IMG/VR virus record: IMGVR_UViG_2693429622_000012
Reading direction: 5' to 3' (one strand)
Length of the DNA: 4,592 nucleotides
From: a virus
Lineage: Duplodnaviria > Heunggongvirae > Uroviricota > Caudoviricetes
The notes below the pieces were generated by a model. It was given only the letters and a program-made list of their open reading frames with translations. It was not told where the DNA came from and did not search any database. Shown piece by piece: positions 232 through 885 of this stretch (its first letter is position 1; the number at the start of each line of letters is the position of its first letter). The position numbers were made by a program, and so were the translations under genes.

Positions 232-341
232 TATTCATTCTTCCAGATTCCTTCCGGCAGAGCCTTATACTGAAATATACCTGGCTCAGGATATTGTTGA
301 AAATATTTTATGTTTGTCAAAAATAAAAGTTCTGTTAAGTA

Positions 342-695
342 TTGATTGAGTGTTTGTTATACGGTCTAATGGTTTTTTCAGCATTAAATATTTATCATTC
401 ATATGGTGTGGGTAGAGTGAATATTGATGAGGCGTCGGGGTGTTTCATCCTTAGGCAGCGTATTGATATAGTCAATGCAGCACGAGCAAAGGCCTTCAGC
501 CGTTTGACAGTTTTGTTCTGTACTCCTGATCGTCTTTCGGGAAGAGACGTTATTATTCTGAATAGTGATGCTATACAGAGGGTTTGCGATGAGTTCATGG
601 TTGCTAATTCAGAATTATTTGCTCTTGTTCAGGAGTACAACAGAATAGCCAGGACCTGTGGTATGGATGAACTTCGGATTACTCATCTGGGGTAG
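342..695 (+). CDS. Hypothetical protein, cargo (moron) candidate, no recognisable family
   Basis: 117-codon ORF (TTG at 342; in-frame alternatives ATG 369, GTG 408, GTG 417, the last with a GGTG/GGGT Shine-Dalgarno-like stretch upstream). Immediately downstream of tRNA-Arg with no terminator in between. Lies inside a segment absent from the paralogous locus at 2155-2188. Start codon uncertain and no homology recognised. Confidence 0.4.
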   Translation: MIECLLYGLMVFSALNIYHSYGVGRVNIDEASGCFILRQRIDIVNAARAKAFSRLTVLFCTPDRLSGRDVIILNSDAIQRVCDEFMVANSELFALVQEYNRIARTCGMDELRITHLG

Positions 696-775
696 ATACA
701 TATCTGGATTATCACCTGTTACGGTAAAAAGTGATTGCTTACTGTTTTTGTGAATGGCATTGCAGCAGCCGGATA

Positions 776-862
776 ATGTCAGTGCTGGCTGACGGTGTGC
801 TGGTGGCGGGTGTGGTGGTTGTTGCTTTCCCGTTGCTGAAAAAGAAAACGCCAGACTGTTAG
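776..862 (+). CDS. Speculative small hydrophobic peptide ORF (28 aa, MSVLADGVLVAGVVVVAFPLLKKKTPDC)
   Basis: ATG at 776, stop TAG at 860-862. One hydrophobic stretch followed by KKK, typical of small single-pass membrane peptides. Weak ribosome-binding site; could be a chance ORF in G/T-rich sequence that also contains a Chi octamer. Confidence 0.15.
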   Translation: MSVLADGVLVAGVVVVAFPLLKKKTPDC

Positions 863-885
863 CCGGGTATCAGTTAGCGGGAGAA

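What the first reader, a model, noticed from the sequence alone, without database searches (positions are those of the whole stretch)
232..885. A ~650-bp cargo insertion after the tRNA trio, absent from the paralogous locus in the same window
Both tRNA modules end with tRNA-Arg(UCU) and are followed by block A. In copy 2 (2155-2188) only ~35 bp and a strong terminator separate them. In copy 1 that terminator is replaced by ~650 bp of unrelated sequence holding a 117-codon ORF, a 28-codon hydrophobic ORF and a Chi octamer. An insertion between conserved flanks in a prophage late region is the classic signature of a moron, and this is the slot downstream of the tRNAs where Stx phages carry stxAB. 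With no terminator after the tRNAs, the cargo would be co-transcribed with them.
Basis: partly seen in the sequence, partly recalled or inferred. Interest (0 to 1): 0.75.

Follow-up and report, generated by a model that had tools for sequence, protein, structure and literature searches.

The report
Accessory gene cassette in prophage stx slot
The 650-bp segment is a real, common but uncharacterised two-gene accessory cassette in the variable slot of E. coli lambda-like prophages where Shiga-toxin phages carry their toxin genes; it is an ordinary example of phage mosaicism.

Summary
After tRNA-Arg(UCU), copy 1 has 654 bp (232-885), while copy 2 has 35 bp with a strong terminator. Both resume in the same "block A".

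Block A is the 5' half of a known prophage sRNA gene, STnc100 (Rfam RF02076). In phage 933W, stx2AB lies between that terminator and STnc100, so this is the stx slot. Unlike this cassette, stx keeps the terminator.

Neither allele is universal. The cassette is in 1183 of 5426 complete E. coli genomes at 98.9% identity or more, and the empty allele is in 1029.

The cassette is itself mosaic:
- an AT-rich leader;
- a real 92-codon gene (GTG 417-695, phrog_2873), with dN/dS 0.26 against a 68%-identical homologue, a confident helical-hairpin model and no RefSeq annotation;
- an N-terminally truncated DUF3927/TciB-like membrane peptide (731-862), left from a tciA-tciB cassette.

I found no convincing promoter or terminator of its own. 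Read-through from the tRNA or late promoter to the STnc100 terminator is therefore plausible but untested. Protein function is unknown.

Caveats: copy 1 has only two intact tRNAs, and the window is a gapped scaffold, so the adjacency of the two copies is unreliable.

Verdict: a new member of a known kind, of modest interest.

The parts
1..54 (+). 3' part of phage tRNA-Ile2 (anticodon CAU, ileZ-type), cut by the start of the window
   Evidence: Rfam tRNA match at 1-51, cut at the 5' end. Identical to 1927-1980 of copy 2. PGAP calls it tRNA-Ile in E. coli 042.
62..140 (+). Decayed argN-type tRNA. The acceptor and T-arm ends are kept and the middle is replaced.
   Evidence: Aligns with tRNA-Arg(UCG) 1988-2064 only at its ends. 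Called by neither ARAGORN nor Rfam.
155..231 (+). tRNA-Arg(UCU), argO-type. This is the left flank of the slot.
   Evidence: ARAGORN and Rfam at 68 bits. The cassette starts directly after its CCA end in all 71 IMG/VR loci where the junction could be read.
232..416 (+). AT-rich leader of the cassette (31-34% GC). It has no terminator and only weak promoter-like matches.
   Evidence: Composition. The promoter/terminator scan gives only a 9/12 match at 297-324 on this strand. The last ~80 nt are conserved with the diverged homologue.
417..695 (+). orf92, a protein-coding gene for a helical-hairpin protein of family phrog_2873.
   Evidence: PHROG match E 3.8e-70. dN/dS is 0.26 against 0.86-1.19 in the shifted frames, with no indels over 279 nt at 68% identity. 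Distant homologues of 91-95 aa start at this position. AF2 pLDDT 88.7, helices at 3-34 and 50-81.
704..730 (+). Remnant of the tciA 3' end and the tciB start region. This is the recombination joint inside the cassette.
   Evidence: By my own count from alignment A8, 24 of 28 nt match the tciA stop / tciB start of phage JLK-2012. Deletions of 11, 4 and 5 nt follow.
731..862 (+). DUF3927/TciB-like small membrane peptide. It is 43 aa from GTG 731, or 28 aa from ATG 776, and lacks the first hydrophobic segment of full-length TciB.
   Evidence: Pfam PF13064 E 1.7e-27 and phrog_1470. PGAP annotates a 'DUF3927 family protein' here. Alignments with the 54-aa TciB.
799..806 (+). Chi octamer GCTGGTGG, inside the DUF3927 ORF
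   Evidence: Pattern search: 3 sites in the window against 0.18 expected from shuffles.
886..994 (+). Block A, the right flank of the slot. It holds the upstream region and 5' half of an STnc100-family sRNA gene and is cut by the N-run at 995.
   Evidence: Rfam RF02076 at 928-1118 scores 37.8 bits, degraded by the Ns. The same sequence in gap-free contig L022 scores 131.5 bits.
1905..2154 (+). Copy 2: intact tRNA trio Ile2(CAU), Arg(UCG), Arg(UCU)
   Evidence: ARAGORN and Rfam. 91.7% identical to ileZ-argN-argO of 933W, measured over window 1754-2195, which also includes flanking sequence.
2155..2192 (+). The 'empty' state of the slot: an intrinsic terminator directly after argO
   Evidence: Stem 2169-2186 with 6 GC pairs, then T8. 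The equivalent site is annotated as a terminator in 933W.
2231..2420 (+). Complete STnc100-family sRNA gene of copy 2. Block A of copy 2 is 2189-2297.
   Evidence: Rfam RF02076, 123.6 bits, E 8.9e-28, full model length.

Best explanation
232-885 is an accessory, moron-type cassette. It sits in the variable cargo slot of the late operon of E. coli lambdoid prophages, between the phage tRNA cluster (ending in tRNA-Arg UCU) and an STnc100-family sRNA gene. The same slot is empty in copy 2 (terminator only) and holds stx2AB in phage 933W.

The cassette is itself a recombinant. An AT-rich leader plus a 92-codon gene for a soluble alpha-helical hairpin protein (orf92, phrog_2873) is joined at about 704 to the leftover 3' part of a tciA-tciB cassette. 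That leaves a truncated DUF3927 membrane peptide with a single hydrophobic segment.

Shown: the alleles, their boundaries and frequencies, the equivalence with the stx slot, that orf92 is a coding gene under purifying selection, and the fold class.

Inferred:
- The cassette replaced the tRNA terminator and has no convincing promoter or terminator of its own. It would therefore be transcribed by read-through from the tRNA promoter in lysogens, and from pR' under Q antitermination after induction. Transcripts would end at the STnc100 terminator.
- The two small proteins would act as host- or phage-modulating factors through protein or membrane interactions. Their target is unknown.
For: - Alleles and flanks.
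- Frequencies: 1183 and 1029 of 5426 genomes.
- Late-operon context in E. coli 042.
- In 933W the order is tRNAs, terminator, stx2AB, block A/STnc100. Published work places STnc100 75 nt after the stx2 operon (PMC12370729).
- STnc100 directly followed the gene or interval after the phage tRNAs in the seven other loci scanned and in contigs L022 and L055.
- The cassette abuts both a decayed tRNA module (64 loci) and an intact trio (7 loci). It has different downstream neighbours: IraM in 52 loci and other sequence in 20.
- orf92 is coding.
- tciB remnant.
- In 042 there is a pR'-like site, tR', a pT-like site upstream, and no strong terminator until the 3' end of STnc100.
Against: - Nothing here measures transcription. 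The promoter and terminator scans are simple consensus matches, and an atypical promoter in the AT-rich leader cannot be excluded.
- There is no functional annotation. NCBIfam and PADLOC gave nothing and Pfam gave no significant match for orf92, and structure searches returned only generic helical hairpins.
- The DUF3927 ORF is truncated and varies in length between strains, so it may be decaying.
- orf92 occurs in only 1 of 50,697 GenBank phage records.
- In some carriers the tRNAs directly upstream carry damaging changes.
- The last two points suggest that many carriers are defective prophages.
Confidence: 0.7

Rival explanations
1. The direction is reversed. The cassette-bearing arrangement is the older state, and the 'empty' allele (and the stx allele) arose by deletion or replacement. 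On this reading 232-885 is backbone that copy 2 lost, not an insertion.
For: - Nothing polarises the event, and the two alleles are about equally frequent.
- The sequence just before block A is loosely similar in the two copies: GCGGGAGAAATTTTTAAAT against GCGGGCCTTTTTTTTAAAT.
- DUF3927 followed by STnc100 recurs as a linked pair with different upstream partners.
Against: - The 35-bp terminator of the empty allele is a discrete functional element shared with Stx phages. It is not a deletion scar of the cassette.
- The cassette has a foreign, AT-rich composition.
- The cassette is nearly invariant (98.9% identity or more) across 1183 genomes and, in the IMG/VR sample, sits in several different flanking contexts. 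That looks like recent spread.
Confidence: 0.2
2. The cassette is inert baggage of decaying, defective prophages. orf92 and the DUF3927 remnant no longer do anything useful and persist only by hitch-hiking.
For: - argN is decayed in copy 1.
- 16 of 71 carrier loci have the tRNA-Arg CCA end changed to CTA, and others have T-arm changes.
- The DUF3927 ORF is truncated to 43, 28 or 24 aa in different strains.
- The 042 prophage has a broken terminase gene.
- orf92 is in 1 of 50,697 phage records, and IS600 insertions are nearby.
Against: - orf92 keeps an open frame with dN/dS 0.26 and no indels against a homologue that is 68% identical at the DNA level, while the DNA on both sides is full of indels.
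- Relatives at 32-40% identity keep the same length and the same position downstream of Q in at least one other lambdoid prophage.
Confidence: 0.2
3. The cassette is a small anti-phage or colicin-tolerance (superinfection exclusion) module. A membrane peptide and a cytoplasmic partner together protect the lysogen.
For: - PHROGs labels the DUF3927 family 'TciB-like inhibition of cell division or resistance to colicin' and puts it in the moron / host-takeover category.
- Neighbouring cargo in this region includes TerB-domain (TciA) and TolA-C-terminal-domain proteins.
- The slot sits in a prophage region known for lysogenic-conversion genes.
Against: - There are no PADLOC hits.
- The label is an annotation carried over from one phage record, and I found no experimental paper behind it.
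- The TciB copy here has lost its first hydrophobic segment.
- orf92 is unrelated to TciA, and in one distant relative no DUF3927 gene follows it.
Confidence: 0.1

Closest known systems
The stx2AB locus of Stx2 phage 933W (Q, pR', ileZ-argN-argO, terminator, stxA2-stxB2, STnc100)
   Same: The flanks are the same. The tRNA cluster region is 91.7% identical and block A/STnc100 is 81% identical. In both, cargo sits between them in the Q-dependent late operon.
   Different: The cargo is unrelated to Shiga toxin. In 933W the terminator after argO is kept and stx follows it, and an stx promoter is annotated in GenBank record X07865. Here the terminator is replaced and the cargo begins directly at the tRNA 3' end.
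The tciA-tciB cassette of phage JLK-2012 (TerB-domain protein plus DUF3927 peptide, downstream of Q and three tRNAs, upstream of STnc100)
   Same: It occupies the same kind of slot. The DUF3927 gene and the spacer to STnc100 are homologous, at 93% over 114 nt. Even the last ~28 nt of tciA are recognisable at 704-730.
   Different: tciA is replaced by the unrelated orf92. The tciB start and its first hydrophobic segment are destroyed by small deletions. The upstream tRNAs also differ: Asn, Thr and Gly in JLK-2012.
Morons of lambdoid phages (Hendrix and Juhala sense; from my own knowledge of the literature)
   Same: It is extra DNA between genes that are adjacent in related phages. It has deviant base composition and lies in a late-operon position.
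   Different: No promoter or terminator of its own was detected. It appears to depend on upstream promoters and on the terminator of the next gene.
The diverged orf92 paralogue next to a prophage AraC-like regulator (contigs L004, L008, L009)
   Same: It belongs to the same protein family (57-61% identity). It lies in the same region after Q and the methylase and is followed by STnc100.
   Different: It is preceded by a 241-aa AraC/HTH_18 gene instead of tRNA-Arg. The downstream region that aligns with DUF3927 is not recognised as DUF3927 by Pfam.

Membership tests
Moron (extra gene block in a lambdoid phage) | Present in some phages and absent between the same flanking elements in close relatives | tested here: met
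   Copy 1 against copy 2. 1183 genomes carry the cassette and 1029 carry the empty allele. 933W has stx in the same interval.
Moron (extra gene block in a lambdoid phage) | Base composition different from the surrounding genome | tested here: met
   226-450 is 31-34% GC, against 47-57% in the tRNA flank on the left (windows 1-300) and 52-60% in the methylase gene further right. The 3' part of the cassette (676-900) is 48-50% GC.
Moron (extra gene block in a lambdoid phage) | Own promoter | tested here: inconclusive
   Only weak 9/12 consensus matches on the coding strand (297-324 and 748-777), no more than shuffles give. The scan is simple and covers sigma-70-type sites only.
Moron (extra gene block in a lambdoid phage) | Own terminator at the 3' end | tested here: not met
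   No terminator-like site lies between 862 and block A. The next strong one is at the 3' end of STnc100 (L001 7087-7108).
Moron (extra gene block in a lambdoid phage) | Expressed from the repressed prophage | not testable with these tools
   Needs RNA-seq or a reporter assay in a lysogen.
The stx cargo slot of lambdoid/Stx phages | Downstream of Q/pR' and the ileZ-argN-argO tRNA cluster, upstream of STnc100 and the lysis genes | tested here: met
   Context in E. coli 042. 933W annotation and alignment. Rfam hits.
The stx cargo slot of lambdoid/Stx phages | Terminator kept between argO and the cargo | tested here: not met
   The 933W terminator corresponds to window 2169-2192. In copy 1 homology stops at about 244 and no terminator is found.
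DUF3927 / TciB (Pfam PF13064, phrog_1470) | Profile match above the curated threshold | tested here: met
   95.6 bits against a cut-off of 25, E 1.7e-27. phrog_1470 E 7.8e-13.
DUF3927 / TciB (Pfam PF13064, phrog_1470) | Full-length 54-aa form with two hydrophobic segments, start overlapping the stop of an upstream tciA (TerB-domain) gene | tested here: not met
   The N-terminal segment is lost through deletions of 11, 4 and 5 nt. tciA is absent apart from ~28 nt of its 3' end.
phrog_2873 (phage protein family of unknown function) | Full-length profile match | tested here: met
   E 3.8e-70, profile positions 1-108 of 108.
STnc100 sRNA (Rfam RF02076), for block A | Covariance-model score above the gathering threshold | tested here: met
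   Copy 2 scores 123.6 bits against a threshold of 47. Copy 1 scores 37.8 bits because it is cut by the N-run, and the same sequence scores 131.5 bits in gap-free contig L022.
Known anti-phage defence systems (PADLOC-DB) | Any profile match for either protein | tested here: not met
   No family at E <= 0.1.
GapR / UPF0335 nucleoid-associated proteins | Significant sequence or fold match | tested here: not met
   Only sub-threshold matches (E 0.05-0.25) over a single helix. GapR is not among the listed top structural hits.

The most novel reading that the evidence does not exclude
orf92 is a functional lysogenic-conversion factor that RefSeq annotation has missed. In the cassette allele the loss of the tRNA terminator would wire it into the constitutive tRNA transcript, so about a fifth of E. 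coli strains would express it. More broadly, STnc100 copies would act as the recurring right-hand recombination boundary that lets cargo such as stx, tciAB, orf92, AraC-like regulators and TolA-like genes be swapped as cassettes in this slot.
Probability: 0.15. Interest if true: 0.6.

Novelty: new member of a known kind. Interest (0 to 1): 0.3.

Why it matters
The finding defines the stx insertion slot precisely: tRNA-Arg(UCU) on the left and the STnc100 sRNA gene on the right. It also lists alternative occupants of that slot, which helps in annotating Stx and other lambdoid prophages and in following how cargo moves between them.

It flags a conserved small gene under purifying selection (orf92). 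This gene is present in about 22% of the complete E. coli genomes searched, yet it is left unannotated in every RefSeq record I looked at.

None of this changes how prophage mosaicism is understood, and no phenotype is attached to the cassette.

Tried and rejected
- Literature searches for 'TciB' returned only unrelated acronyms. 'DUF3927' gave one listed paper, where the term occurs once and which I did not read. 'ileZ argN argO moron' found nothing relevant.
- NCBIfam and PADLOC gave no hits for either protein. Pfam gave nothing significant for orf92.
- A profile search against PDB sequences gave only sub-threshold GapR/UPF0335 matches over one helix. I rejected this as evidence.
- A full HMMER search of 1.84 billion representatives found only 21 relatives and no annotated family.
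- An exact search for the IS600 junction in GTDB species representatives, meant to identify the source genome, gave 0 hits.
- Alignment A5 was too divergent for a locus search. With alignment A6, only E. coli and one doubtful 2.7-kb MAG contig were found.
- I considered a type I toxin / antisense-RNA reading for DUF3927 plus STnc100. I rejected it because STnc100 lies downstream on the same strand and does not overlap the peptide gene.
- I considered that loci L029 and L049 show orf92 without DUF3927 as a further mosaic variant. I rejected this because they are IS600 insertions directly after orf92.
- Rfam found no RNA family inside 232-885 at E <= 0.1.

Full report
**What is in the window.** ARAGORN finds tRNA-Arg(UCU) at 155-231, and an intact trio at 1905-2154: tRNA-Met/Ile2(CAU), Arg(UCG) and Arg(UCU). 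Aligning 1-994 with 1905-2297 shows near-identical tRNA sequence. Block A is 94% identical between the copies over 108 nt, measured on a contig whose second module is 100% identical to copy 2.

Between the flanks, copy 1 has 654 bp. Copy 2 has 35 bp holding a 7-bp stem with 6 GC pairs followed by T8.

**Corrections to the observation.**
- The middle tRNA of copy 1 (62-140) matches argN only at its two ends and is called by neither ARAGORN nor Rfam. Copy 1 is not an intact trio.
- The window holds N-runs at 995-1006 and 3738-3744, and no complete E. coli genome carries the window colinearly.
- In E. coli 042, window 1-994 and 3744-4562 lie 55 bp apart in one prophage. In gap-free IMG/VR contigs that are 100% identical (L022, L032), piece 1 runs directly into piece 3.
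- Piece 2 (a truncated DNA methyltransferase gene, the trio, the terminator, block A and IS600) resembles a different prophage, as in E. coli 55989.
- The N-runs sit at boundaries of repeats (STnc100, IS600). The window is therefore a gapped scaffold, and the physical adjacency of the two copies cannot be trusted. The indel comparison itself is unaffected, because both alleles occur in finished genomes.

**Context and the slot.** In E. coli 042 the segment lies after hokD, a DUF968 gene, rusA and a Q antiterminator. It lies before iraM, a DUF1737 gene, and the holin and lysozyme genes. This is the late region of a lambdoid prophage.

Block A and the ~120 nt after it are a known RNA gene. Rfam STnc100 (RF02076) matches 2231-2420 at 123.6 bits.

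In phage 933W the tRNA trio and its annotated terminator align with window 1754-2195. Next come stxA2-stxB2, then block A/STnc100. This agrees with a published statement that STnc100 lies 75 nt after the stx2 operon (PMC12370729). Stx phages keep the terminator and put stx after it, whereas here the terminator is replaced.

STnc100 directly followed the gene or interval after the phage tRNAs in all seven other loci scanned: 933W, 042, 55989, JLK-2012, mEp460_ev081, SCEC020007 and ATCC 25922. Some loci have two STnc100 copies bracketing successive cargo genes.

**Distribution.**
- The full 654 bp occurs in 1183 of 5426 complete E. coli genomes, at 98.9% identity or more in the sampled rows.
- The empty allele (tRNA-Arg, terminator, block A) occurs in 1029.
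- In 78 IMG/VR contigs the cassette abuts the decayed tRNA module in 64 and an intact trio in 7.
- In those contigs it is followed by STnc100 plus iraM in 52 and by other sequence in 20. This is the pattern expected of a mosaic module.
- The left junction is always the tRNA-Arg 3' end.
- orf92 occurs in only 1 of 50,697 GenBank phage records. Among 185,579 species representatives it is found only in E. coli, plus one doubtful MAG contig.

**What the cassette contains.**

*1. Leader, 232-416.* This stretch is AT-rich at 31-34% GC.

*2. orf92.*
- A diverged homologue is 68% identical at the DNA level (L008 4784-5062). Against it, the last 279 nt show no indels, 43 of 89 differences at third codon positions, and dN/dS 0.26. 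The two shifted frames give 0.86 and 1.19. The DNA on either side is full of indels. This is a real gene.
- Relatives of 91-95 aa at 32-40% identity all start at the position of GTG 417. The most likely product is therefore 92 aa.
- The family is tiny, with 21 hits among 1.84 billion representatives.
- One distant member also lies downstream of a Q-like gene and a tRNA.
- AlphaFold gives a confident antiparallel two-helix hairpin: pLDDT 88.7, helices at 3-34 and 50-81, with the conserved TPDR loop between them.
- Structure and profile searches return only generic hairpins, plus a sub-threshold resemblance to GapR over one helix.
- PGAP does not annotate the gene in any RefSeq record I looked at.

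*3. DUF3927 peptide, 731-862.*
- It matches Pfam DUF3927 at E 1.7e-27 and the 'TciB-like' PHROG.
- Alignment with phage JLK-2012 shows that window 704-730 is homologous to the stop of tciA (a TerB-domain gene) and the start of tciB.
- Deletions of 11, 4 and 5 nt have removed the first hydrophobic segment of the 54-aa TciB.
- In other strains the ORF is 28 or 24 aa long.
- The cassette is thus itself a recombinant, in which orf92 replaced tciA in an older tciA-tciB-STnc100 unit. orf92 and TciA are unrelated.

**How it probably works.** In E. coli 042 the sequence after Q holds, in order:
- a pR'-like site;
- a strong terminator (tR');
- a pT-like site just before tRNA-Ile;
- the tRNAs and the cassette;
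- no further strong terminator until the 3' end of STnc100.

Inside the cassette there are only weak promoter matches, no more than shuffles give, and one weak terminator-like hairpin within orf92.

My best inference is that orf92 and the DUF3927 peptide are transcribed by read-through. In lysogens this would come from the tRNA promoter, because the terminator of the empty allele is missing. After induction it would come from pR' under Q antitermination. This is inference from sequence, and no expression data were available.

The biochemical role is unknown. A small helical hairpin and a membrane peptide with one hydrophobic segment suggest modulators that act by binding a protein or the membrane. 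The colicin-resistance or cell-division label on TciB is an annotation for which I found no supporting experiment.

**Comparison with what is known, and novelty.** The kind of feature is well known: variable accessory cargo in the Q-to-lysis region of lambdoid prophages. It fits the presence/absence and composition criteria of a moron. It does not show the criterion of an autonomous promoter and terminator.

Both genes already sit in public family databases (Pfam DUF3927, PHROGs 2873 and 1470), and the sequence is in more than a thousand finished genomes. In the literature searches I ran, I found no description of this cassette as an occupant of the stx slot, and no functional data. I rate it a new member of a known kind, of modest interest (0.3). 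It is useful mainly for annotation and for mapping cargo exchange at the stx slot.

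Noticed in passing
window 995-1006 and 3738-3744: Two N-runs split the window into three pieces. In finished genomes and gap-free contigs, piece 1 (1-994) continues into piece 3 (3744-4592), while piece 2 resembles a different prophage. The gaps coincide with repeat boundaries (STnc100, IS600), so the scaffold order is doubtful.
   Followed up: yes
window 886-994, 2189-2420, 3745-3805; loci L001-L004, L008, L010-L013: Block A is the 5' half of an STnc100-family sRNA gene (Rfam RF02076). 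STnc100 follows the cargo in every related locus examined. In some loci two copies bracket successive cargo genes, so it may be the recurrent right-hand boundary for cargo exchange.
   Followed up: partly
window 62-140; IMG/VR loci L018-L097: argN is decayed in copy 1. In all 71 carrier loci the tRNA-Arg upstream of the cassette has an A-to-G change in the acceptor stem (making a G-U pair). In 16 of the 71 the CCA end is changed to CTA, and others have T-arm changes. This suggests relaxed constraint on these phage tRNAs.
   Followed up: partly
window 2596-3737 and 4560-4592: IS600 (IS3 family) copies. One follows an unassigned 180-bp stretch after STnc100. A second interrupts the DUF1737 gene at about codon 43, and its end repeats 2596-2636. 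In two IMG/VR contigs IS600 sits directly after orf92.
   Followed up: partly
window 1007-1864: The C-terminal 285 codons of an N6/N4 DNA methyltransferase (Pfam PF01555). The 5' part is missing at the N-run. In intact prophages this gene sits directly upstream of the tRNA trio.
   Followed up: partly
window 3837-4172 (- strand): A 111-aa homologue of the anti-adaptor IraM (the PGAP name in matching genomes) is encoded on the opposite strand just after STnc100. It is another likely lysogenic-conversion gene in this region.
   Followed up: no
window 1498-1511: Two overlapping Chi octamers on opposite strands (1498-1505 on the - strand, 1504-1511 on the + strand) lie inside the methyltransferase gene. 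With the site at 799-806 that makes three, against 0.18 expected from shuffles.
   Followed up: no
L008 3969-5062; L004 2933-5360; L009: A diverged orf92 paralogue (57-61% identity) sits directly after a 241-aa prophage AraC-like (HTH_18) regulator gene instead of after tRNA-Arg. The region aligning with DUF3927 there has frame-breaking indels and is not recognised by Pfam.
   Followed up: partly
window 2413-2595: An unassigned stretch of about 180 bp lies between the STnc100 terminator and the IS600 end. It has no annotation and no family match in the searches made.
   Followed up: no
window 417-695, and matching positions in RefSeq E. coli genomes: orf92 is not annotated in the RefSeq/PGAP records I looked at (only the DUF3927 gene is). 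The GenBank record of mEp460_ev081 has no feature under the orf92 match and instead lists a 38-codon ORF on the opposite strand just upstream. This happens despite clear purifying selection on orf92.
   Followed up: yes
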